A DNA stretch of 64,000 nt from Nitrospirota bacterium (GTDB lineage Bacteria > JACPQY01), in NCBI GenBank assembly GCA_016180645.1, contig JACPAV010000033.1, positions 1-64,000 on the forward strand, read 5' to 3'. Position numbers and translations under genes: made by a program. Positions 1,508 through 10,555 of the stretch are shown piece by piece (within the stretch, counting starts at the first letter, position 1; each line of letters starts with the position of its first letter). A model generated the notes under the pieces. That model had not been told where the DNA came from. It did not search any database and saw only the letters and a list, made by a program, of their open reading frames with translations.

Positions 1508-4500
1508 ATGAAAAGCTTCGGCGCCTTTGGTCGCACCGCACTCTTGTGTCTCCTTTTCGCGCCCTTCTCCTTTCGGGAAGTTTTGGCGGCGAGCGAGGGG
1601 ATGGCCGCATTTGCAAGCGGAACGAGCACTACCCCCAACCACCGTACGTGGAACTCAACATTCAATAATGACTTGGATGCGGCCACGGCCACGGCCAACG
1701 CCGCGGCGGGGACCATCGAATACTCCGTACTGCGCCGCTGCCCGGTGCGTCGCGAATACATCCTGGGCACGCTCGATTCGGCCGGCACGATCACGATTCA
1801 AACCACTTCTGACGACGGAGCAACTTGGACGGCCCGGGGGTCCTGCTCCACCTGCCAAGGCACGACCAACGACGCCTTCGGCGGGCTCGACATCGCCTAC
1901 GAGCAGTCCTCCGGTGAAGCCCTTATCGTTTTCGAAAATGCTACCGGCAACAACAAGCTCATCCGGTATGACCGGTGGGACGGCACCACGTACACGTCGG
2001 CTTCCACCCTCACCATAACGGGCGGGAACACTACCACGCGCTGGGTTCGCCTCAAGTCCCTTGCGGGAAGTGATCGCATTGCTCTTGCGGTCGCCGGCGC
2101 GAACAGCACCTTGAATGTCTCCGTGTGGAACGGCTCGACATGGGAGAGCACCTCGACCAGCCTGACGGCTTCTCTGGCCGCCGTGACGGTTAGGGCGTTC
2201 GATATCGAGTTCGAACAGTCTACGGGGGACATCTTGGTGGTGTACGGCTCGGGTACCACGCTGAGCCACCACACTTGCCCCGCTCCAGCCGCCTGCACTT
2301 GGAGCGGCGCCACCTCAAACAGCCCCTTCAACCCGGGCGTGGCCGTCAACTGGGTGGAAATGGCCGCCGATCCGGCCACGGACGATATCGCCCTGATCGC
2401 GCATATGAACGGAACCGGCTGCACAACCGCAACCTGCCGGGCTCAACATGACCTTTGGACCGGCGCCGGTTGGGTAGGGGGAACGACGGCCGACACTTCC
2501 GTCAACGTCACGTCCGCCAGCAGCCCCAATATCCCGGTCGCCGTGGCCTGGGAGAAAAGCAGCAGCACCGCCCTTTTCGCCTTCGTAGATGGAAGCTCGA
2601 CCACTGCGGTGGACTACGTTACGGCCGCCGGCTGCTCGGGCGGTTGCACATGGACCCCCGCGACCGGCACAAACCTCACCAACGCCTCAACCACCACCCA
2701 AACCTGGCCGGGAGCAATACCAACGGTCCAGCTCGTCGGCAGCCCCAACGAGAATCAGATCTACCTCCTGGCGGAGAGCGTGGATACGGCCGCACCGGCC
2801 GACTATGAGCTCCAAGCCCTCCTCTGGAGCGGCGGGGCCTTTTCCCAAACCGCCACGCAAAGCCAAGTCTCCATCGACGTTGACTCCAACGCTTTCGCGC
2901 CGTTCAGTTTCGCGTGGTCCTATCCCTTCTTTCAGCAGGCCAACTACCAGTGGTTTCTGAACCAGAGCACCCCGGTGCTGAATCCGGCCGACCCGGGGGA
3001 TCAGTTGGCCACGGACAATAACGTGGCTACGGGCGTCTACACAACGAGAGAAGTGAGGCTCCGCGTCAACTTCACCGCCCGAGGGGGGACGCTGGCATCG
3101 GGGAAAATCCTGCGGCTCCAGTACAGCAGCGATGCGACGAGTTGCACCACCGGCACATGGACCGACATCGGGAGCACCGAGACAACCAACATGATCTGGC
3201 GCGTGATCGGTTCCGGCGGTGTCCTGACGGATGAAACCTCGGTTACGGCCCAACGGGTGGACGGTTCAACCCTGAATGGGCTGTACACCGAGTCGGGAGA
3301 CAGCACGACCGCCGCGTCCTACTCCCTGGGGGACACCCCGGAATGGGACTGGAGCTTCACCAACTTCCAGGCTCCTCCGAATACGGGATATCGATTCCGA
3401 ATGCTCGAAGTGGTCGGCGGAACCCCCACGGTTACCGGGTCCTATTCGTCGAACTGCCCGCAGCTTTCGACCACGGATCCGGACGGATTGGTGGCGTACG
3501 CAACGACCTCGGGCGCCAACGAACCCAAGTATAAGAACTGGACGGGCACCCAGTTCGATGCGTCGGAGTCCGATGCCGGGACGCAGACGAGCACCATCCG
3601 ATATGTGGTGCAGAAAACAGCCAAGGTGGCGAGCAACCTCAAACTCATGGGAACGCTCGACAGCACCGGCGCCATCACCTTCCGCTATTGGAACGGCGCC
3701 TCCTGGGCCGCCCCCGGCGGGAGCTGTACGTGCAGCACCTCGGCTGCGAACAGCGCCTATCGCGGGTTCGATATCGCCTTCGAGTCCAAATCAGGCGAAG
3801 GGCTCATCGTCTGCGATGACGGGACGGCCAACGACAGTGTCAACTACTGCACCACCACCGCAGGCGGGGCGACTCTCTCGAACGCCGGCTCGCTGACCGT
3901 TTCCACCGGCTCGGCCAACGCCAACTGGATCAGGCTCGAGGCCAGCCCGGCGGCCGACTACATCGTGATGGGCGTGTTGAACTCCAATACCACCGCCACG
4001 GGCGCGGTCTGGAACGGGAGCAGTTGGGTGACCAACACCACCTTTTCGGACACGACCAGTTCAGCTACCAACGAGGCCTTCGACGTGGCATGGCACCGTG
4101 TCACCAGCCGAGCCATGATCGCATACGGCACCGGCACTTCTACCAACTACTCCATCTGGCAGTCCGGAACATGGGGAACGCCGGCGGCGGCAGGTAACCC
4201 GGGAGCTGCCGTGAGTTGGCTTCAACTCGATGCGTCCCACGTGAGCGATTACATCCTGGAAGTCACGGTGGACGGCGGCTCGGACGTCGAAACGTTTGCC
4301 TGGAGCGGGAGCGCTTGGAGTACGCCCGGGAGTTGCGCCGATGCAGCCGCCAGCCTGCTCGCCAATCGGTCGATCGATGTGAAATGGGAAACCGTCAGCA
4401 GCGACGCCCTGATTGCCTATGTGGATGCGGCGGGCGGCGGAGGAAACGACAAAGTCACCTACTGGACCTACACGGAGGGTGGGAGTTGCGCGGCGGCGGC

Positions 4501-7500
4501 CACAATCGGAACATTCACGGACGTGCAGACGGTGCAACTCCGGAACTCGCCCGACGGCGACGAGATCATGCTCCTCGCGTTGGACAGCACGAGCGCCATC
4601 AAGGGCTTCATCTGGAGCGGCAGCGCGTTCTCCACGCCTACCGGCAGCGCTCTAACGGCGGCGGCCTCGGCGGCCGCATACGAACCGTTCATGTACGCCT
4701 GGAATGCCGGAGCGCCCACTCTCGTCGAACTCGTCTCCTTCGGGGGGTACAGCAGGAGCCGTGGGCTTCAGCCCGCGTCCGACGGTCCGGTAGGCGCAGG
4801 CTTTATGCCTGCGTCCGAAGACGCACCCGTAAAGGGTGCGGCTACCAGCGCTGGGGGATACGAAGTGGTCTTGGAATGGGAAACGGCGGCGGAACGCTCC
4901 AATGCAGGTTTCTACCTGCATCGGAGCGAGACGCGAGACGCGGGACGCAAGACGCAGGTCAATCAGAAGATGATCCAGGGCCTTGGAACAAGCGCCCGCG
5001 GCAAGAAATACGTCTTCGTCGACGACCTCTCCGATCTCATCACTCATCACTCATCACCCATCACGATTCAGTACTGGCTCGAAGACGTCGAATTCAACGG
5101 CACCCGCACGATGCACGGCCCGGTGGAAGTCCACGTCGGCCTCGATTCGGACGGCGATGGGATGCCGGATGATTGGGAACGCGCGTACGGATGCGCCTCC
5201 GCACTCGGTCGGTCTGCGATTCGTAGGGGCGGATCTTCAGATCCGCCCTCTTGGGGAGACCGTAGGGGAGCATCTTTAGATGCTCCTTCTCTGGGAGGGT
5301 CTAAAGACCCTCCCCTACAATGCCTCGATCCCCTCGTCGCAGACGCCGACGGCGACGCCGACGGAGATGGGATCAGCAACCTCCTCGAGTACCTCAACGG
5401 CACCTCGCCCACCGCCATCGAAAGCGGGGTGTGGATCACGGACCTTTCCGCGTTCAAATCTAGGGGTCAGGGGTCAGGGGCCAGGGGCCAGGAACTAGGA
5501 ACCAGGAACCAGGAACCACCCGCTCACCCTGAGCCCGTCGAAGGGTGGCGGGTGACCAAAGAAGACTCCACCGGTATCGAGATGGAATGCACCGGAGAGG
5601 GTTGCTCCACTCCGGCCCGCCTCGCCGTCCCGCCGGGCGCCAAACTCCACGATTCTCCTGGTGTCGACGCGATTGCCGAAGGCATCTTCCGGGATCAAAC
5701 CATTCTGCGAATAGCTTCAGCGGACAAGGAGGTAACCGGCATTCTCCGTGCGCGTCTGGAATTCGCAGGTCCCCACGTTCCGGTAGCCGCAGGCTTCAGC
5801 CTGCGTCCCGAGCGCACCCTGAAGGGCGCGGCTACCCCGGATCTCACAAGTCTCCTTGATTCCGTCGTCCTGAACAAGTTCCGTTGGGCGTTTGTCAGTA
5901 GGGGAGCATCTTTAGATGCTCCCTTCAACGCGGGCGGATCTAAAGATCCGCCCCTACAAGGCGGAGAGTGGCGATCTCCCTCGCGCTCGACCGGAACATC
6001 GCTGAAAGTTTCCGTGACCGAAACCGGCGTCTACAAAATCACCCGCGACGACATCGCCGACGCCGGCCTCGATCCGAATCTCTTCGATCCGGAAAAGGCG
6101 CAGGTGTGGGTTCCTGGTTCCTTGTTCCTAGTTCCTGGTGGAGAACGATTACAGCCCGTGAATGTTCAAGCGGACGGTGGGGCATTGTATTTCCTTGGGG
6201 AGCCCGCCGACTCGAAATACACCCGCACGAATGCGTATTGGCTTCTCTTGGATCCGTCGAACGTCGAACGTCGAACGTCGAACGAAATCCTGGATTTGAC
6301 TCAACCGGGACCGGCCGACGAACCGTTCCAAGACGCGCTTCGGCTTGATCCCTCTGCTTGCGTCCTGCGTCCTGCGCCCTCCAGGATGGAGCAAGTGCCG
6401 CGAGAGGGCAGGAGCCCGGAGCGGCCGTCCTGCGCCCTCCTTTATTGGCAAGAAATGCCCGGCCCCTCAGACGCGGAACGGTTCTTCTTCGCCCCCGTCC
6501 TCAAGGACGGCGATTCACACGACTACGAGTTCGAGCTGCCTGAACTCGCGAGCAACGAGCAACGAGCAACGAGCAACCTCCAAGTAGGGCTTACCCTTCT
6601 CGGACTGGCCGAATCGAACGTGGCCCAGAGCCACAAAGTCGAAGTCTCGCTGAACGGTCTGACTCTTGGCGAAATGACATGGACCGGCCGGGATCTCTTC
6701 CACTCCTCACTTCGCACTTCGCACTCCGCACTTCGCACCGGACAAAATACAATGACCCTCAAGGTGCTGCTTGCGGAGGGCGCCCAGTTCGATCAAGTTC
6801 TGCTCAAAGGTGCGACGATTCCATACTATCGACCTTCGCGCCTCGCGCTCCCGGTCGTGAACCCATCACTCATCACCCATTACGCATCACGCGGCCTCTT
6901 GGATGCCACCAATCGGGCCGACTACATCATGATTCTGCCGGAGGCAGGGGTCGGCAAATCTGTAGGGGCGGGTCTTCAGACCCGCCCGGAGGGAGCATCT
7001 GAAGATGCTCCCCTACAAGAAGCCCTTCGGCCGCTGGTCGAATACCACGAATCCCACGGGCTCACCGTCAAAGTCGTTTCGCTGGATCAGATCTATGATG
7101 AATTCGGGGCCGGTCTCGCCACGCCGCACGCCATCAAGAATTTCCTCCATTTCGCATTTCACAATTGGCAATCTCCGAAACCCTCCTACGTCCTCCTCGT
7201 CGGCGATGCCTCATACGACTACAAGGGGTATGAGGATGGGGAACAAGTTCCTGGTCCCTCGTTCCTCGTTCCTAGCTATCTTCTCTATACCCCCTTGGGG
7301 GGTGAGGTGCCTTCAGACGCTTGGTTTGTTTCTTTCGATGGAGGGGCGCCCTTCGACAAGCTCAGGGTGAGCGGAGAACAAACCGCTCGTGGTGAGCTTG
7401 TCGAACCACGGGGCAACGAGATCGATCTCTTTCCCGATATGGCAATCGGGAGATTGCCGGCGAGGACTCCCGACGAACTCTCAGCAATGGTGGACAAGAT

Positions 7501-8458
7501 CCTTCACTACGCGGACGACGATCCGGAATCGAATTGGCGCCGGAACGTGCTGCTGGTGGCGGACAACTTTCAATCCGATTTCGAAGGGGTTTCGGAAAGC
7601 CTCTTCGACCTTGCGCCGCCCAGTCTGCTCCTCACCCGAGGCTACCTCTCGCTCCTTCCCTCCGCGAGCGATCTGTCCGGCGCGATCGTCAAGGAGATCA
7701 ATTCGGGCGCCTCCCTCATCAACTACCTGGGCCACGGCTCCGCCGAGTTCTGGGCCGCCGAGAAAGTCTTCGGCTCCGCGCAACTCCCTGCGCTGGAAAA
7801 CCTGGGCCGATATCCTTTCATTTCCACGTTGACCTGTATCAACGGTTACTTTGTCTTCCCGCCGGAGCAGGAGTTTGAGGCCATGGCCGAAGAGTTCGTT
7901 CGGGCCCCCGGCAAAGGTGCGGTGGCATTTTTCGCTCCCAGTGGAATGTCCAGCCCCGCCGTTCACGGCGCGCTCAACCGCGCGCTCTACAAGGCGATCA
8001 CGCAGGACCGAGTCAATCCGATCGGCGCGGCGATTCAGAAAGCCTATCTCGATGTGGCTTCGCAGGTCAGCGCAGGTCGATGGGAATACGTCCCCCAGAT
8101 GTTCGTCCTCTTCGGCGACCCCGCGATGGACTTGGTGCTTCCGACCTCCGATGCCCCCGCGACTCACGACGCACAACGGACGACTGACGATTCCGGTTGC
8201 GGCTGCGCCCACATCGGCGCGCCGGCGGGATGGGCGGGAGGGCTGACGGGGTTCTTTGGACTTCTGGGCCTCTACGCGGTAACGCGGATTCTTCGTCGCC
8301 GGCGCCGAAGGTCTTGGCCTAAGTGCAAGTTCATGCGTATGTGCGGATTCGCAAACGGTGGCGCGGACCCTGAAGGGCCCGCTACAGAGCTCAAATCGTG
8401 TAGCCGAGCCTTCAGGCTCGGCAAGTCAACCCGCACAATGCGTTGTGCGGGTACGTAG
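1508..8458 (+). CDS. Giant secreted protein: duplicated N-terminal beta domain, FN3-like domain, DxDGDG Ca-binding repeat, peptidase C25 (gingipain-like) domain, MYXO-CTERM-like anchor
   Basis: Signal peptide; PTLVELVSF..VLEWET..GFYLHRS; DSDGDGMPDDWE..DADGDGISNLLEY; ADYIMI, YVLLVGDAS, AIGRLP, NYLGHG (His 7733), LTCING (Cys 7835), LFGDPA; GCGC-TM-RRRRRR. Confidence 0.9.
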   Translation: MKSFGAFGRTALLCLLFAPFSFREVLAASEGMAAFASGTSTTPNHRTWNSTFNNDLDAATATANAAAGTIEYSVLRRCPVRREYILGTLDSAGTITIQTTSDDGATWTARGSCSTCQGTTNDAFGGLDIAYEQSSGEALIVFENATGNNKLIRYDRWDGTTYTSASTLTITGGNTTTRWVRLKSLAGSDRIALAVAGANSTLNVSVWNGSTWESTSTSLTASLAAVTVRAFDIEFEQSTGDILVVYGSGTTLSHHTCPAPAACTWSGATSNSPFNPGVAVNWVEMAADPATDDIALIAHMNGTGCTTATCRAQHDLWTGAGWVGGTTADTSVNVTSASSPNIPVAVAWEKSSSTALFAFVDGSSTTAVDYVTAAGCSGGCTWTPATGTNLTNASTTTQTWPGAIPTVQLVGSPNENQIYLLAESVDTAAPADYELQALLWSGGAFSQTATQSQVSIDVDSNAFAPFSFAWSYPFFQQANYQWFLNQSTPVLNPADPGDQLATDNNVATGVYTTREVRLRVNFTARGGTLASGKILRLQYSSDATSCTTGTWTDIGSTETTNMIWRVIGSGGVLTDETSVTAQRVDGSTLNGLYTESGDSTTAASYSLGDTPEWDWSFTNFQAPPNTGYRFRMLEVVGGTPTVTGSYSSNCPQLSTTDPDGLVAYATTSGANEPKYKNWTGTQFDASESDAGTQTSTIRYVVQKTAKVASNLKLMGTLDSTGAITFRYWNGASWAAPGGSCTCSTSAANSAYRGFDIAFESKSGEGLIVCDDGTANDSVNYCTTTAGGATLSNAGSLTVSTGSANANWIRLEASPAADYIVMGVLNSNTTATGAVWNGSSWVTNTTFSDTTSSATNEAFDVAWHRVTSRAMIAYGTGTSTNYSIWQSGTWGTPAAAGNPGAAVSWLQLDASHVSDYILEVTVDGGSDVETFAWSGSAWSTPGSCADAAASLLANRSIDVKWETVSSDALIAYVDAAGGGGNDKVTYWTYTEGGSCAAAATIGTFTDVQTVQLRNSPDGDEIMLLALDSTSAIKGFIWSGSAFSTPTGSALTAAASAAAYEPFMYAWNAGAPTLVELVSFGGYSRSRGLQPASDGPVGAGFMPASEDAPVKGAATSAGGYEVVLEWETAAERSNAGFYLHRSETRDAGRKTQVNQKMIQGLGTSARGKKYVFVDDLSDLITHHSSPITIQYWLEDVEFNGTRTMHGPVEVHVGLDSDGDGMPDDWERAYGCASALGRSAIRRGGSSDPPSWGDRRGASLDAPSLGGSKDPPLQCLDPLVADADGDADGDGISNLLEYLNGTSPTAIESGVWITDLSAFKSRGQGSGARGQELGTRNQEPPAHPEPVEGWRVTKEDSTGIEMECTGEGCSTPARLAVPPGAKLHDSPGVDAIAEGIFRDQTILRIASADKEVTGILRARLEFAGPHVPVAAGFSLRPERTLKGAATPDLTSLLDSVVLNKFRWAFVSRGASLDAPFNAGGSKDPPLQGGEWRSPSRSTGTSLKVSVTETGVYKITRDDIADAGLDPNLFDPEKAQVWVPGSLFLVPGGERLQPVNVQADGGALYFLGEPADSKYTRTNAYWLLLDPSNVERRTSNEILDLTQPGPADEPFQDALRLDPSACVLRPAPSRMEQVPREGRSPERPSCALLYWQEMPGPSDAERFFFAPVLKDGDSHDYEFELPELASNEQRATSNLQVGLTLLGLAESNVAQSHKVEVSLNGLTLGEMTWTGRDLFHSSLRTSHSALRTGQNTMTLKVLLAEGAQFDQVLLKGATIPYYRPSRLALPVVNPSLITHYASRGLLDATNRADYIMILPEAGVGKSVGAGLQTRPEGASEDAPLQEALRPLVEYHESHGLTVKVVSLDQIYDEFGAGLATPHAIKNFLHFAFHNWQSPKPSYVLLVGDASYDYKGYEDGEQVPGPSFLVPSYLLYTPLGGEVPSDAWFVSFDGGAPFDKLRVSGEQTARGELVEPRGNEIDLFPDMAIGRLPARTPDELSAMVDKILHYADDDPESNWRRNVLLVADNFQSDFEGVSESLFDLAPPSLLLTRGYLSLLPSASDLSGAIVKEINSGASLINYLGHGSAEFWAAEKVFGSAQLPALENLGRYPFISTLTCINGYFVFPPEQEFEAMAEEFVRAPGKGAVAFFAPSGMSSPAVHGALNRALYKAITQDRVNPIGAAIQKAYLDVASQVSAGRWEYVPQMFVLFGDPAMDLVLPTSDAPATHDAQRTTDDSGCGCAHIGAPAGWAGGLTGFFGLLGLYAVTRILRRRRRRSWPKCKFMRMCGFANGGADPEGPATELKSCSRAFRLGKSTRTMRCAGT
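4755..4845. repeat. In-frame cluster of three REP-like hairpins (GTAGS-CGCNNN family)
   Basis: GGAGCCGTGGGCTTCAGCCCGCG 4755-4777; GTAGGCGCAGGCTTTATGCCTGCG 4790-4813; CGCACCCGTAAAGGGTGCGGCTAC 4822-4845. Confidence 0.85.
4930..4957. repeat. Intragenic heptamer array x4 (GACGCRR)
   Basis: GACGCGA GACGCGG GACGCAA GACGCAG. Confidence 0.85.
5038..5065. repeat. Intragenic heptamer array x4 (CATCACN)
   Basis: CATCACT CATCACT CATCACC CATCACG. Confidence 0.9.
5192..5320. repeat. 129-nt in-frame insert carrying three REP hairpins
   Basis: GTAG 5223, GTAG 5262, CTAC 5315-5318; splits the YG/LDP of the DxDGDG repeat; ATGC at both junctions (5191-5194, 5320-5323). Confidence 0.9.
5462..5545. repeat. Intragenic heptamer array x8 followed by half of a TGAGCNNGTCGAA element
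   Basis: AGGGGTC x2, AGGGGCC x2, AGGAACT, AGGAACC x3 (5462-5517); CGCTCACCCTGAGCCCGTCGAAGGG (5521-5545). Confidence 0.9.
5783..5835. repeat. In-frame inverted REP doublet
   Basis: GTAGCCGCAGGCTTCAGCCTGCG ... CGCACCCTGAAGGGCGCGGCTAC. Confidence 0.9.
5898..5957. repeat. In-frame inverted REP doublet (60 nt)
   Basis: GTAGGGGAGCATCTTTAGATGCTCCC ... GGGCGGATCTAAAGATCCGCCCCTAC. Confidence 0.92.
6109..6136. repeat. Intragenic heptamer array x4 (NGTTCCT)
   Basis: GGTTCCT GGTTCCT TGTTCCT AGTTCCT; reverse complement of the AGGAACC units at 5490-5517. Confidence 0.88.
6255..6282. repeat. Intragenic perfect heptamer array x4 (CGTCGAA)
   Basis: CGTCGAA repeated four times exactly. Confidence 0.92.
6359..6379. 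repeat. Intragenic heptamer array x3 (TGCGYCC)
   Basis: TGCGTCC TGCGTCC TGCGCCC. Confidence 0.7.
6549..6576. repeat. Intragenic perfect heptamer array x4 (CGAGCAA)
   Basis: CGAGCAA repeated four times exactly. Confidence 0.92.
6701..6735. repeat. Intragenic heptamer array x5 (CACTYCG)
   Basis: CACTCCT CACTTCG CACTTCG CACTCCG CACTTCG. Confidence 0.9.
6864..6891. repeat. Intragenic heptamer array x4 (CATYACN)
   Basis: CATCACT CATCACC CATTACG CATCACG. Confidence 0.85.
6961..7017. repeat. In-frame inverted REP doublet inside the C25 domain (57 nt)
   Basis: TGTAGGGGCGGGTCTTCAGACCCGCCC GGA GGGAGCATCTGAAGATGCTCCCCTACA. Confidence 0.92.
7246..7273. repeat. Intragenic heptamer array x4 (NGTYCCT)
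   Basis: AGTTCCT GGTCCCT CGTTCCT CGTTCCT. Confidence 0.85.
7349..7407. repeat. In-frame TTCGACAAGCTCA/TGAGCTTGTCGAA inverted-repeat element
   Basis: CCCTTCGACAAGCTCAGGGTGAGCGG ... CCGCTCGTGGTGAGCTTGTCGAACC; related copies at 5521 and 8484. Confidence 0.88.
8160..8187. repeat. Degenerate intragenic heptamer array x4
   Basis: CGACTCA CGACGCA CAACGGA CGACTGA. Confidence 0.6.
8364..8422. repeat. REP-like pair in the C-terminal tail of the giant ORF
   Basis: CGGACCCTGAAGGGCCCGCTAC 8364-8385; GTAGCCGAGCCTTCAGGCTCGGC 8400-8422. Confidence 0.8.
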
Positions 8459-8482
8459 AATCGGTTTTACAACCGTTCTCAC

Positions 8483-10555
8483 GTGGTTCGACGGGTTCAC
8501 CACGAACGATCCTCAGCTCACAAATCCTCCGTTCGCCCTGGACCTGCCGAAGCGCGGAGAAACGGGCTTGAGGCCGGTTCTGGGCGCGCCTCTCTGACCC
8601 TGTACTCCTGCGCACTGTTGTTGCTGGTTGCACTCCCCTATCTCAATACGTTTCGGGTCCCTTTCTACGAGGATGACAGACCACACATCACCAACAACCC
8701 TTCCGTGGTTGGAATGGGCGACCTTTCAGCGAAGCGCCTTTGGGATGCTGCTTTCACAAGCCCGCTGCCAAGTCGCCCGGTTCCGAACCTGACTCTCGGG
8801 CTCAACTACTATTTGCACGGCTTCAGCCTGCCTGGATACCATGCTTTCAATCAGCTTGTTCACTCGCTTTGCGTGGTCTTGCTCTTCCATGTCTTCTTTC
8901 TTCTCCTGACTTTCCACGAGAATCAGATCCTGATTCGGAACCGGCGAATGGTTGCGTTTCTCGCGGCCTTGTTGTGGGGGGTCCACCCTATTCACACGCA
9001 GGTGGTGACATACATCGTTCAGCGCATGACGTCCATGGCTGCGCTGTTCTATCTGTCATCTTTCAGGAGCTTCTTGATCTATCGAAATGAAGCTTCCAAG
9101 CATCCGAGTATTCATCGGATCCTATCCTGCCTATTCTATGTTCTCGCACTGGGGTCCAAGGAAACTTCGTTGACGCTTCCCCTATTGGTCCTGATCTACG
9201 AACTCTTGCTCGTCCCGGGCAAGCCCGGCCAGGCTCTCTGGAGGAGATTTTCCGGAACCTTCTTGTTCGGTGGATTGGCCGCAGGCGCATCCGTCTTCTA
9301 CACCATCTTCTACGCAACCGGGTTCAACAAGTTCCAGGTTGCCCTTGGCGTTGAGTCTTTTCCGGGGATTCAAGCTTCACTGGGCATGCTGGTTTCGAGA
9401 GCATTGACGAACTGTCGCGCGTTGTTTTTCTACTTGGAGCTGTTGGGTACTCCCTCCCCAAAGAATCTGAGCCTCTTTCGGGAGTTCGAGGCTTCCCGCT
9501 CTCTCTTCGAACCTCCGACAACAACGCTCGCCTTGCTGGCCACGGCAGGTCTTGTCTGGGCTTGCGTCTCGCTTCGCAAGTCGAACCCGCTTGCCGTGTT
9601 TCTTGTACTCTGGTTTCCGGTGCACTTGAGCGTGGAAGGGGCCATGGCTGGACTCAGAGCCGTTTTCGATCATCGAATGTATCTCTCTTCGGCCGGCGTC
9701 GTCCTGTTATGTGTTGGCCTGCTCGCGCCCAGAATCCTTAGGAACAGAGCGGTCCTGCTCATGGGTCTGGCATCGGTCAGCCTTGCGTTGGGAACAATGA
9801 CGTTACTCAGAAACAGGATTTGGGCAGATCCAGAAACCTTTTGGCAATTGGCGGTGAAAAATAGCCCCTCGCAGCCCGGCGCTTGGAACAATCTTGGCAT
9901 CGTCTACGCGGAGAAAGGCCGCTACGAAGAAGCCTTGGGCTACTACGAAGAGAGCTTGCACAGGAACCCCAACTACCTGTTTGCTCACCAGAACCGGGCG
10001 CATGCCTTTATCCAATTGGGAGAATACGAGAAAGCACTGACAGCCGCTGAATTTGTGCTGTCGATCGATTCCGGTTGGGCAAAAAGCCACGAAATCGCCG
10101 CGATGGCCTGCGAAAAGCTGGGAGATAGCGCCCAAGCACTCTCCCACTACGAGAAGGCCGCCGCCCTCTCCAAGACTGCGCATAGCTATGCCCTGTTGGG
10201 CAGTTACCTGAGCAGGTTGGCTGAGTGGCAGGAAGCTGCCCACGCCTACCAAAAGGCCCTCGACCGAGACCCGAGGTACGAAGACGTTTACGTCAACCTA
10301 GGTGCGCTTTACCTGCTTAATCTGAACAAGCCCACGGAGGCTCGCAAGATCGCGGAAAAAGGTCTCGATCACTCCCCAGAAGACCCCGATCTTCTGGTTA
10401 TTGCGGGCCTCTCGCACTGTCAACTCCTGGACTTTCCTGTCGCGCTAACCCTCCTGTGGAGAGCCAAGGGGCTTACCTCCCCCGGGTATCCGAGATTAGG
10501 ACTCCTTGAGGATGGACTGGCCAAGGCTTCGAATGGAATCCGATGTTTCAGATAG
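8483..10555 (+). CDS. TMTC-like membrane glycosyltransferase (GT-C) with C-terminal TPRs; start uncertain
   Basis: FYEDD loop, RPVPNLT, HPIHTQVVTYIVQR, SKET, DHRMYL motifs, many TM segments, TPRs (AWNNLGIVY..A..YY). Confidence 0.85.
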   Translation: MVRRVHHERSSAHKSSVRPGPAEARRNGLEAGSGRASLTLYSCALLLLVALPYLNTFRVPFYEDDRPHITNNPSVVGMGDLSAKRLWDAAFTSPLPSRPVPNLTLGLNYYLHGFSLPGYHAFNQLVHSLCVVLLFHVFFLLLTFHENQILIRNRRMVAFLAALLWGVHPIHTQVVTYIVQRMTSMAALFYLSSFRSFLIYRNEASKHPSIHRILSCLFYVLALGSKETSLTLPLLVLIYELLLVPGKPGQALWRRFSGTFLFGGLAAGASVFYTIFYATGFNKFQVALGVESFPGIQASLGMLVSRALTNCRALFFYLELLGTPSPKNLSLFREFEASRSLFEPPTTTLALLATAGLVWACVSLRKSNPLAVFLVLWFPVHLSVEGAMAGLRAVFDHRMYLSSAGVVLLCVGLLAPRILRNRAVLLMGLASVSLALGTMTLLRNRIWADPETFWQLAVKNSPSQPGAWNNLGIVYAEKGRYEEALGYYEESLHRNPNYLFAHQNRAHAFIQLGEYEKALTAAEFVLSIDSGWAKSHEIAAMACEKLGDSAQALSHYEKAAALSKTAHSYALLGSYLSRLAEWQEAAHAYQKALDRDPRYEDVYVNLGALYLLNLNKPTEARKIAEKGLDHSPEDPDLLVIAGLSHCQLLDFPVALTLLWRAKGLTSPGYPRLGLLEDGLAKASNGIRCFR
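8484..8552. repeat. Degenerate TTCGAC..GTCGAA-family element overlapping the next ORF start
   Basis: TGGTTCGACGGGTTCACCACGAACG ... CGTTCGCCCTGGACCTGCCGAAG. Confidence 0.65.

What the first reader, a model, noticed from the sequence alone, without database searches (positions are those of the whole stretch)
4755..8422. A surface-protease gene packed with about 19 frame-preserving micro-repeat inserts of three unrelated families
Seen: in 3.7 kb of the 2316-aa ORF there are 6 GTAG-REP clusters (4755, 5223, 5783, 5898, 6962, 8364), 2 TTCGACAAGCTCA-family elements (5521, 7349) and 11 heptamer arrays. The frame stays open and the C25 His (7733) and Cys (7835) are intact. I saw none in 1508-4750 of the same gene and almost none inside other CDSs, although the same REPs are common between genes. 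Several interrupt recognisable motifs at loop positions. Known: in-frame coding palindromes occur as Rickettsia palindromic elements and cyanobacterial small dispersed repeats, typically few per gene. Inference: this is either a region under selection to keep or exploit repeat-encoded loops (surface diversification), a strong insertion hotspot filtered for frame, or inserts removed at RNA level.
Basis: partly seen in the sequence, partly recalled or inferred. Interest (0 to 1): 0.9.

Follow-up and report, generated by a model that had tools for sequence, protein, structure and literature searches.

The report
Protease gene crowded with in-frame micro-repeats
One intact 2316-codon gene for a large protease-like envelope protein of an uncultured groundwater bacterium carries 19 tiny repeat elements of at least four kinds, all read through as protein, making it an extreme case of selfish repeats surviving inside a working gene.

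Summary
Observation confirmed. ORF 1508-8458 is open and its C25 peptidase domain keeps His2076 and Cys2110. My scans find the same 19 elements in 4757-8421: 11 heptamer arrays, 6 GTAG-REP clusters, 2 copies of a third hairpin element. None lies in 1508-4750.

This is the densest micro-repeat stretch of the 4.7-Mb assembly: 19 events per 3.7 kb, next 12, mean 0.63.

It is not a locus-specific system. The REPs belong to two genome-wide families, each with its own REP-flanked tyrosine transposase (RAYT) gene. The same families sit inside 199 of my 3616 crude gene calls, mostly giant surface-type proteins but also argS, mnmG, mnmE and mnmA.

Most elements are absent from a paralog and from 28 distant homologs, and fall in low-confidence loops. 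A frame filter is visible: the canonical 59-nt REP doublet is 77 of 106 between genes but 1 of 12 inside genes. That argues for translation and against removal at RNA level.

Best reading: frame-filtered accumulation in permissive loops, with inserts trapped.

Unexplained: heptamer arrays are copy-pasted about-30-nt units that mostly overwrite native sequence rather than lengthen it.

The scan has noted in-frame heptamer repeats before in other phyla. New variant of a known kind.

The parts
1508..8458 (+). Intact ORF of 2316 aa. It has a signal-peptide-like N-terminus, a repeat-free N-terminal half, an insert-rich middle, a C25 peptidase domain, and a GCGC + hydrophobic helix + RRRRRR tail.
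   Evidence: The signal-peptide and anchor readings are my inference from the sequence.
4757..4845 (+). REP-B cluster, three units: 4757-4780 (degenerate head), 4790-4814 (+), 4821-4845 (-). It encodes aa 1084-1113.
   Evidence: It corresponds to a 29-aa gap in the paralog. pLDDT below 50.
4926..4955 (+). Heptamer array GCGAGAC x4.3. It is shared with the paralog, sits inside a confidently folded beta domain, and is not an insert.
5036..5064 (+). Heptamer array CTCATCA x4.1, of a family with 22 arrays in the genome. The paralog carries a REP-A doublet at this same site.
5223..5318 (+). REP-A cluster, three units: 5223-5248 (+), 5262-5287 (+), 5293-5318 (-). It encodes aa 1239-1271. The paralog has two 8-nt x4 arrays at this site.
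   Evidence: pLDDT below 50.
5462..5518 (+). Composite of two heptamer arrays, (AGGGGYC)4(AGGAACY)4, encoding 19 aa. The net gain against the paralog is 14 aa. The same composite lies in argS.
5520..5545 (+). Single arm of the third hairpin family: a covarying stem around the conserved loop CTGAGCNTGTCGAAGG.
   Evidence: 92% complementary to 7349-7374
5783..5835 (+). REP-B doublet: 5783-5806 (+) and its inverted partner 5812-5835. There is no net length change against the paralog, which has an unrelated sequence of about the same length here.
5898..5957 (+). REP-A doublet of 60 nt, corresponding to a 19-aa gap in the paralog.
   Evidence: pLDDT below 50.
6109..6139 (+). Heptamer array GGTTCCT x4.4. 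It matches C28:1613 exactly over 30/30 nt and is 97% complementary to 5488-5517. Net gain only +2 aa.
   Evidence: It lies in a low-confidence loop.
6255..6284 (+). Heptamer array CGTCGAA x4.3, perfect, lying inside a 21-aa gap of the paralog.
6359..6380 (+). Heptamer array TGCGTCC x3.1, with no length change against the paralog.
6549..6577 (+). Heptamer array CGAGCAA x4.1, perfect, net +4 aa.
6697..6738 (+). Heptamer array CTTCGCA x6.1 (also readable as 21 nt x2). It causes no length change against the paralog or the distant consensus, and lies in a confident beta-strand.
6861..6890 (+). Heptamer array ACCCATC x4.3, an 85% copy of 5033-5065, with no length change.
6962..7016 (+). REP-A doublet inside the start of the C25 domain. 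It is absent from all 29 aligned homologs, counting the paralog.
   Evidence: pLDDT below 50.
7247..7273 (+). Heptamer array GTTCCTC x3.9, laid over a conserved VP...VP segment, with no length change against the paralog.
7349..7405 (+). Full inverted pair of the third hairpin family inside the C25 domain. It is absent from all 29 aligned homologs, counting the paralog.
   Evidence: pLDDT below 50.
8363..8421 (+). REP-B pair read through by the last codons of the ORF. This tail is longer than the paralog's.
7010..8134 (+). Peptidase C25 domain (aa 1835-2209). The His2076 codon is 7733-7735 and the Cys2110 codon is 7835-7837.

Best explanation
The gene encodes an intact giant C25-type (gingipain-fold) envelope protein. 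Its middle and C-terminal part has accumulated in-frame copies of micro-repeats that populate the whole genome.

The repeats are of four kinds: two GTAG REP/REPIN families, each presumably mobilised by its own RAYT transposase; a hairpin element with a conserved loop; and dispersed arrays of about four heptamers.

Only copies that keep the frame and carry no stop survive, and these are translated as extra or rewritten loops.

The segment is so crowded for three reasons. It consists of loops and linkers of a large extracellular protein that tolerate foreign peptide. The repeats tend to cluster. Once an element is in frame inside a needed gene, it can only be lost by a precise in-frame deletion, so it is trapped.

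Shown: the elements, their genome-wide families, the RAYT genes, absence from homologs, the frame filter and the loop positions.

Inferred: translation, trapping, and tolerance as the cause of the density.
For: (1) Genome-wide families. REP-A has 406 units, 328 of them intergenic. REP-B has 309 units, 190 intergenic. There are 356 heptamer arrays and 43 third-family hits.

(2) Two REPtrons. A 157-aa Y1 transposase gene has 14 REP-A units around it, and a 158-aa one has REP-B units on both sides.

(3) They are inserts. REP 4757-4845, REP 5898, REP 6962, the third element at 7349 and the arrays 5462/5488 and 6255 are gaps in the paralog. REP 6962 and 7349 have zero occupancy in 29 homologs, paralog included.

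(4) Frame filter. Intergenic REP-A doublets are 59 nt in 77 of 106 cases, intragenic ones in 1 of 12. Lengths divisible by three are 7 of 12 inside genes against 23 of 106 outside. Phases that would give a stop are empty or nearly so.

(5) Loop positions. 14 of the 18 internal elements lie in segments with pLDDT below about 55.

(6) Shared permissive segments rather than coupled mechanisms. Outside this gene, intragenic arrays lie within 300 nt of a REP in 11.4% of 219 cases, against 3.4% for random coding sites. Intergenic arrays show no such excess: 10.3% of 126 against 12.1%.

(7) Same pattern elsewhere. The 60 predicted genes of 1500 aa or more carry 0.237 events per kb, against about 0.05 in smaller genes. 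In the RCC1 giants the inserts sit in the non-propeller part.

(8) Assembly. Contigs of three runs span every insert with 0 differences.
Against: Tolerance alone does not give the numbers.

The segment holds 19 events per 3.7 kb. By my arithmetic, non-coding DNA of this genome averages about 0.88 per kb, or about 3.2 per 3.7 kb. The coding segment is therefore about six times denser than spacers, even after a filter that must remove most insertions.

The paralog has the same fold and the same age but carries only about 4 elements.

The N-terminal half diverges faster between the paralogs (36% against 53% identity) yet has 0 of the 19.

Low pLDDT at lineage-specific inserts is partly circular, because the alignment has no information there.

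Translation is not shown: no proteome or RNA data were available.

My gene calls are crude (longest ORFs scored by codon usage), so some 'intragenic' counts elsewhere may be spurious ORFs or over-extended starts.

All four runs come from one study, and one of them may be the source of the assembly.
Confidence: 0.6

Rival explanations
1. Mechanistic hotspot. Something in the DNA of this segment, such as a target motif, single-strand exposure or existing repeats acting as landing pads, attracts insertions at a rate far above the rest of the genome. Tolerance only decides which of them stay.
For: It is the densest 3.7-kb stretch of the genome; the next, with 12 events, is mostly non-coding. The density is about six times the spacer average. 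Heptamer arrays cluster genome-wide: 37.9% have a neighbour within 500 nt against 7.4% for random placement. The paralog has different repeats at two of the same sites.
Against: Four kinds of element with presumably different mechanisms are all enriched here. In spacers, arrays are not associated with REPs. No common flanking motif was seen in the array flanks that I printed, though I did not test this formally.
Confidence: 0.17
2. Selected use. The repeat-encoded loops, or the slippage-prone heptamers, are kept because they diversify or switch a surface protein, as an antigenic or phage-receptor variation or contingency locus.
For: The loaded genes are mostly giant surface-type proteins. The gene holds 11 arrays whose gain or loss of one unit would shift the frame. 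The density exceeds that of neutral-looking spacers.
Against: No copy-number or presence/absence variant was seen in contigs of four runs, though contigs drop rare variants. Arrays have only about four units, few for efficient slippage. The same arrays sit in argS, mnmG, mnmE and mnmA, where switching would be harmful.
Confidence: 0.12
3. The inserts are taken out of the message or skipped by the ribosome, so the protein lacks them.
For: Many of them are hairpins. Massive translational bypassing of hairpin inserts is known from a yeast mitochondrion (recalled, not looked up).
Against: All 19 are open and keep the frame. Intragenic REP-A doublets avoid the canonical 59-nt length and stop-giving phases are missing. 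Removed or skipped inserts would not be filtered this way. No Rfam family matched in 4500-8700.
Confidence: 0.03
4. Assembly chimera or decaying pseudogene.
For: Short-read contigs break at REPs: pieces end at 4816/4818, 6284-6422 and 6990-7016.
Against: Contigs of three runs cover every element and its flanks with 0 differences. A 6951-nt open frame with intact catalytic residues and long blocks identical to the paralog is not what decay leaves.
Confidence: 0.02

Closest known systems
REPIN-RAYT systems and GTAG-tagged REPs (Di Nocera et al. 2013, PMC3733652, passages read; Bertels and Rainey 2011, PMC3116915, listing and abstract only)
   Same: There is a GTAG head plus stem-loop, hundreds of mostly intergenic copies, inverted doublets of fixed length, and a small Y1 transposase gene flanked by its own REPs. 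Di Nocera et al. already report GTAG REPs inside genes, mostly as dimers encoding 20-30 aa.
   Different: In that paper an ORF carries single elements or dimers at most twice, and clusters encode 43-82 aa. Here one ORF carries six clusters of two REP families, plus 13 elements of other kinds.
Rickettsia palindromic elements (Ogata et al. 2000, seen only as summarised in passages of PMC10969869 and PMC3733652)
   Same: These are selfish palindromic repeats inserted in frame into functional genes and read as extra peptide.
   Different: RPEs are about 150 bp, are restricted to Rickettsia, and number 44 per genome spread over unrelated genes. Here the elements are 26-60 nt, four kinds coexist, and 19 sit in one gene.
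Dispersed four-unit heptamer arrays of Xanthomonas and Nostoc (Rehm et al. 2015, PMC4692102, passages) and cyanobacterial tandem heptanucleotides (mentioned there; the name STRR is recalled)
   Same: [quoted passage not shown]
   Different: Those are one G-rich unit per genome, and the four-unit preference was explained by G-quadruplex formation. Here 127 canonical units occur, most of them unable to form quadruplexes, yet the mode is still about 4.2 units. Of the 356 arrays, 201 lie inside predicted genes.
Long simple sequence repeats and TAACTGA repeats (MacGregor 2015, PMC4679880, passages, which summarise Mrazek et al. 2007)
   Same: Heptanucleotide repeats are the most abundant long SSR class in many genomes. 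Polymerase slippage was proposed as the cause.
   Different: Here the arrays recur as near-identical about-30-nt units at unrelated loci, and their net length effect is not the +21 nt expected from slippage.
Peptidase C25 / PorU-type proteins
   Same: The C25 domain matches with E 3.6e-83 and has the His/Cys dyad.
   Different: The PorU models score far below their cut-offs: 204.8 against 420, and 140.4 against 450. The N-terminal 1070 aa match no Pfam family. No relative above 45% identity exists outside this genome among 5.8 billion clustered proteins.

Membership tests
REP / REPIN with RAYT | GTAG head followed by a short imperfect palindrome | tested here: met
   1039 of 20281 GTAG sites are followed by a hairpin (5.1%), against 1.2-1.5% for six control words. 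Units in the gene are listed.
REP / REPIN with RAYT | High copy number, mainly extragenic | tested here: met
   REP-A: 328 of 406 units intergenic. REP-B: 190 of 309. 311 exact pattern matches against 0 for the reversed control.
REP / REPIN with RAYT | Inverted doublets of fixed spacing | tested here: met
   77 of 106 intergenic REP-A doublets are 59 nt long.
REP / REPIN with RAYT | Cognate Y1 (RAYT) transposase gene flanked by the REPs | tested here: met
   There are 7 PF01797 hits over the cut-off. Two of them, of 157 and 158 aa, are flanked by REP-A and REP-B units respectively. The catalytic HUH and Tyr residues were not inspected.
REP / REPIN with RAYT | Mobilisation by the RAYT | not testable with these tools
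   This needs an experiment or population data.
Rickettsia palindromic elements | In-frame insertion into functional ORFs | tested here: met
Rickettsia palindromic elements | About 100-150 bp element with a conserved encoded peptide, in Rickettsia | tested here: not met
   The elements are 26-60 nt and the nearest relative is labelled Nitrospirae. They work like RPEs but are not members.
Four-unit heptamer arrays (Rehm 2015 type) | 7-nt unit with a preference for four units | tested here: met
   The copy-number distribution peaks at 4.1-4.4.
Four-unit heptamer arrays (Rehm 2015 type) | G-rich unit able to form a G-quadruplex | tested here: not met
   The commonest units are AAATCTC (32 arrays) and ACTCATC (22).
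Contingency locus (phase-variable SSR) | Unit-number polymorphism that switches the frame | tested here: inconclusive
   No 7-nt indel was seen in contigs of 4 runs. Contigs drop rare variants, and no raw reads were available.
Peptidase C25 | Domain match above the curated cut-off, with the catalytic His and Cys | tested here: met
   280.3 bits against a cut-off of 23. H597 and C631 of alignment A3, which are His2076 and Cys2110, are invariant.
T9SS sortase PorU | Score above the NCBIfam equivalog cut-off | tested here: not met
   204.8 bits against a cut-off of 420.

The most novel reading that the evidence does not exclude
The four-unit heptamer arrays are not slippage products. They are about-30-nt units that are copied between loci and written over existing DNA in one step, for example by break repair templated from another array or by short-patch conversion anchored on microhomology. 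Coding loops are thereby rewritten with little or no change in length. Giant surface proteins, and this gene above all, would then be the visible record of a natural loop-rewriting mutagenesis that also touches essential genes.
Probability: 0.15. Interest if true: 0.8.

Novelty: new variant of a known kind. Interest (0 to 1): 0.58.

Why it matters
REPs are by definition extragenic, and in-frame selfish repeats are treated as rare curiosities of one or two per gene. Here the most repeat-dense stretch of a whole genome is an intact reading frame that still encodes a conserved catalytic domain. That gives a natural map of where a large protein tolerates 7-33 foreign residues. It also allows a direct comparison of four repeat systems under the same frame filter.

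The length-neutral, copy-pasted heptamer arrays bear on an open question: why bacterial heptamer arrays prefer four units. The quadruplex explanation cannot hold for this genome.

For annotation and assembly, the case warns that REP-rich MAGs break at such elements, and that repeat-masking would wrongly cut real genes.

Tried and rejected
RNA evidence: no RNA holder was listed for 4700-8500, so expression and RNA-level removal could not be examined.

Rfam: no credible match in 4500-8700; the only row is an IRES model at E 0.27.

Closer orthologs: none. Among 173 hits the best outside the genome is 33% identical over 36% of the query. The same-family genome G001 matches only the N-terminal part at 31%. 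So the inserts could be dated only against the paralog.

G001 orthologs of mnmG and mnmE were not found with these queries. That genome is 84% complete.

REP-B doublet lengths gave no clear frame signal: 16 of 22 intragenic doublets are 56 nt, and many may be copies within paralogous RCC1 genes. My frame bookkeeping for the antisense orientation is unreliable, because element lengths vary.

The second structure model (aa 1070-1500) is poor: mean pLDDT 50.2, with an alignment stretched over unrelated columns. I use it only for the beta domain and for 'low everywhere else'.

The joints reported by read laying (for example 5023 to 6962) come from the paralog and from other REP loci, not from insert-free alleles.

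One search exceeded a size limit and was re-sent.

Literature: six searches turned up no report of a gene with a comparable load, and no report of REPs inside genes of Nitrospirota. Supplementary tables were closed, including Additional file 3 of PMC3733652, which lists intragenic REPs per ORF and may hold heavier cases than the main text mentions.
Full report
THE GENE. Window 1508-8458 (+) is one open frame of 2316 codons. Pfam finds only Peptidase_C25, at aa 1835-2209 with E 3.6e-83, and a sub-threshold TSP3 repeat. The NCBIfam PorU models match far below their cut-offs. His2076 and Cys2110 are invariant in a 29-sequence alignment. The N-terminus looks like a signal peptide. The C-terminus (GCGC, a hydrophobic helix, RRRRRR) looks like an anchor or sorting tail. 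Both readings are my inference from the sequence.

Among about 5.8 billion clustered proteins, the only relatives above 34% identity are the protein itself and one paralog. That paralog lies in the same genome at C31:78395-85330 and has 2311 residues. It is 36% identical in the N-terminal part and 53-58% in the C-terminal part.

The genome has 4.72 Mb in 65 contigs and 60-62% G+C. Earlier notes of this scan call it an uncultured Nitrospirota bacterium. The only other species-representative genome holding the exact REP-A unit is labelled a groundwater Nitrospirae MAG.

TRF finds 11 period-7 arrays between 4926 and 7273, and only one other array of 3 or more copies in the 64-kb window. A degenerate 14th unit lies at 4757-4780. 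The third element occurs as a single arm at 5520-5545 and as an inverted pair at 7349-7405. My per-gene count is 11 + 6 + 2 = 19.

None of these lies in 1508-4750. Elsewhere in the window, 16 REP units are intergenic, one overlaps a predicted gene end, and 3 units lie near predicted ORF starts.

Chance does not explain this. Codon-shuffled CDS of the whole genome give 7 period-7 arrays against 206 real ones. Control words and shuffled motifs give far fewer hairpin or motif hits.

ASSEMBLY. Logan contigs of four groundwater metagenome runs hold the stretch. All four come from one study, and one may be the source of the assembly. In three of the runs, contigs with 0 differences cover every element and its flanks. 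In X1, for example, they span 4818-6422, 6398-7016 and 6990-8700. Contigs break at REPs, as expected. The listed 'joints' come from the paralog and from other REP loci. No insert-free allele and no 7-nt indel appears, but contigs drop rare variants.

WHAT THE ELEMENTS ARE.

The GTAG REPs are two families. REP-A (GTAGGGG...) has 406 units, 328 of them intergenic. REP-B (GTAG[GC]CG...) has 309 units, 190 intergenic. REP-A forms inverted doublets, 59 nt long in 77 of 106 intergenic cases. The genome has 7 Y1-transposase matches over the Pfam cut-off. One gene of 157 aa is surrounded by 14 REP-A units, and one of 158 aa has REP-B units on both sides. These are two classical REP-RAYT systems. REP-A matches a strict pattern 311 times here and 12 times in the only same-family genome G001.

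The third element is a hairpin with a covarying stem and the conserved loop CTGAGCNTGTCGAAGG. It has 43 hits at up to two mismatches. There are 19 exact matches here and 3 in G001. No Rfam family matched.

Heptamer arrays number 356 at 3 or more copies, in 127 canonical units. The copy number peaks at 4.1-4.4. They are dispersed copies, not local slippage:
- 6109-6138 matches C28:1613 exactly over 30/30 nt and is 97% complementary to 5488-5517.
- 5033-5065 and 6859-6891 are 85% alike.
- 7 of the 11 arrays have 3-14 near-identical arrays elsewhere.
- The 57-nt composite (AGGGGTC)4(AGGAACC)4 recurs inside argS.

ARE THEY INSERTS? Against the paralog:
- REP-B 4757-4845 is a 29-aa gap.
- REP-A 5898 is a 19-aa gap.
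- REP-A 6962 is an 11-aa gap.
- The hairpin at 7349 is a 14-aa gap.
- The composite 5462/5488 is a 14-aa gap.
- Array 6255 lies in a 21-aa gap.

Against 29 aligned homologs (the paralog plus 28 drawn at random from 119 distant C25 proteins that covered the domain), the REP at 6962 and the hairpin at 7349 have zero occupancy.

The paralog has its own elements. It carries a REP-A doublet exactly where this gene has array 5036. It carries two 8-nt x4 arrays where this gene has REP cluster 5223. Array 4926 is shared by both paralogs and lies in a confidently folded beta domain, so it is not a recent insert.

FRAME FILTER AND LOOPS. Intragenic REP-A doublets avoid the canonical 59-nt form (1 of 12). 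Their lengths are divisible by three in 7 of 12 cases, against 23 of 106 between genes. Phases that would create a stop are empty or nearly so.

Two AlphaFold models were made: aa 1480-2240 with mean pLDDT 64.9, and aa 1070-1500 with mean pLDDT 50.2. They place 14 of the 18 internal elements in segments of pLDDT below about 55. The exceptions are arrays 4926, 5036 and 6697, and part of 7247. Low confidence at lineage-specific inserts is partly circular.

The filter argues that the inserts are translated. Inserts removed from the RNA or skipped by the ribosome would not need to be open and in frame.

IS IT LOCUS-SPECIFIC? No. With crude gene calls (3616 ORFs, 87.6% of the genome), 293 of 807 events lie inside 199 genes, and 18 genes hold three or more.

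The next-ranked genes hold 8, 7, 7, 6 and 5 events. They are giant RCC1/Ig-domain proteins, a BNR-type giant and a secretin. In them the inserts cluster in the non-propeller part. Genes of 1500 aa or more carry 0.237 events per kb, against about 0.05 in smaller genes.

Arrays also lie in argS, mnmG, mnmE, mnmA, a GlnE-like gene and a P-type ATPase gene. There they are net insertions relative to solved homologs.

Yet this gene is an outlier. Its 3.7-kb segment is the densest of the whole assembly: 19 events, then 12 in a mostly non-coding stretch of C65, then 9, with a mean of 0.63. By my arithmetic it is about six times denser than non-coding DNA.

WHY HERE? Outside this gene, intragenic arrays are three times more often within 300 nt of a REP than random coding sites (11.4% against 3.4%). 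Intergenic arrays are not (10.3% against 12.1%). So unrelated elements co-occur in coding DNA because they share permissive segments, not because one attracts the other.

Arrays also cluster on their own: 37.9% have a neighbour within 500 nt, against 7.4% for random placement.

To reach a density above that of spacers, I propose trapping. In spacers a sloppy deletion removes repeats at no cost. Inside a needed ORF only a precise in-frame deletion does. This step is inferred.

Three facts speak against pure tolerance and keep a mechanistic hotspot or selection in play. The paralog has only about four elements. The N-terminal half has none although it diverges faster. The excess over spacers is large.

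UNEXPLAINED. Heptamer arrays mostly replace sequence instead of adding to it. Against the paralog, arrays 6359, 6697, 6861 and 7247 change the length by 0 aa, array 6109 by +2 and array 6549 by +4. The 6697 stretch has the same 17-residue length as the consensus of distant homologs and lies in a confident strand.

Against orthologs in G001 (63-66% identical), the 19-aa composite in argS adds only 8 aa, and the roughly 11-aa array in mnmA adds only 2. None of these equals the +7 aa that three slipped units would give.

Turnover of junk in length-constrained loops could explain this. So could a one-step templated overwrite. I cannot tell them apart.

Earlier notes of this scan describe 'replaces rather than adds' and 'different repeats at the same spot' for in-frame heptamer repeats in other phyla. 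I did not check those notes.

LITERATURE. GTAG REPs inside genes are known, mostly as dimers encoding 20-30 aa and at most twice per ORF, with clusters of 43-82 aa (PMC3733652, passages). Rickettsia palindromic elements are the classic in-frame case, with 44 insertions per genome (PMC10969869, passages). Dispersed heptamer arrays with a preference for four units are described for Xanthomonas and Nostoc and are attributed to G-quadruplexes (PMC4692102, passages). Heptanucleotides are the commonest long SSR class (PMC4679880, passages). My six searches found no gene with a comparable load. Supplementary tables were closed.

VERDICT. This is a real and extreme feature. It is explained in kind by known selfish micro-repeats under a frame filter. 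It is unusual in degree: 19 elements of at least four kinds, and the densest spot of the genome is coding. The length-neutral, copy-pasted heptamer arrays remain a puzzle.

Noticed in passing
G000:C25:35020-35490 and G000:C25:105731-106204: Two small Y1 (RAYT-type) transposase genes. One is surrounded by 14 REP-A units and the other has REP-B units on both sides, so each REP family has its own REPtron. The second lies next to a giant RCC1 gene that carries 7 repeat events.
   Followed up: partly
G000:C54:47384-49081 (L036), aa 454-472: The arginyl-tRNA synthetase gene carries the same 57-nt composite of two heptamer arrays as window 5462-5518. The net gain is +8 aa against the same-family ortholog and +11 aa against PDB 3fnr.
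   Followed up: yes
G000:C31:63621-65618, C31:93322-94740, C54:43918-45012: mnmG (three arrays by TRF; two examined here), mnmE and mnmA, all tRNA-modification genes, each carry in-frame heptamer arrays. The mnmA array of about 11 aa adds only 2 aa relative to the G001 ortholog.
   Followed up: partly
G000:C10:45371-65396; C25:106277-111646; C28:95547-100559; C44:103-4026; C63:20477-25450; C13:52930-58134: A family of giant RCC1/Ig-domain proteins, four of them in a row on C10, carries 3-8 repeat events each. Nearly all lie in the N-terminal part outside the RCC1 propellers.
   Followed up: partly
G000:C65:1820-5292: This is the second densest repeat stretch of the genome: 12 events, only 34% coding by my calls.
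   Followed up: no
L013:4571-4646 and L013 (C31:82169-82223): The paralog has two arrays of 8-nt units (x4 each) where this gene has REP-A cluster 5223. It has a REP-A doublet where this gene has heptamer array 5036. Different elements sit at the same two sites.
   Followed up: partly
window 7349-7405 and 43 loci genome-wide: The third element is a hairpin whose stem covaries (ACCC/GGGT, GTCC/GGAC, GCCC/GGGC) around an invariant loop CTGAGCNTGTCGAAGG. That pattern would suit a protein- or RNA-level recognition site. It also occurs in G001 (3 exact copies).
   Followed up: partly
contig ends of G000 (for example C1, C3, C5, C10, C13, C17, C18): Many contigs begin or end within REP-A doublets, so the assembly breaks at REPINs and true copy numbers are probably higher.
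   Followed up: no
several AAATCTC arrays, for example G000:C54:83200-83225 and C25:102232-102264: Some arrays of the commonest heptamer lie between inverted arms of the type GTGAYCCCACC / GGTGGGRTCAC. This suggests a larger hairpin element with a heptamer-array loop.
   Followed up: no
window 6368-6382 and 6426-6440: An exact 15-nt direct repeat, 58 nt apart, overlaps the end of heptamer array 6359. The paralog has an 8-aa gap close by.
   Followed up: no
window 4860-5030 vs L013:4195-4360: The two paralogs are about 80% identical at DNA level over this conserved beta domain, far more than elsewhere. This hints at gene conversion between them.
   Followed up: no
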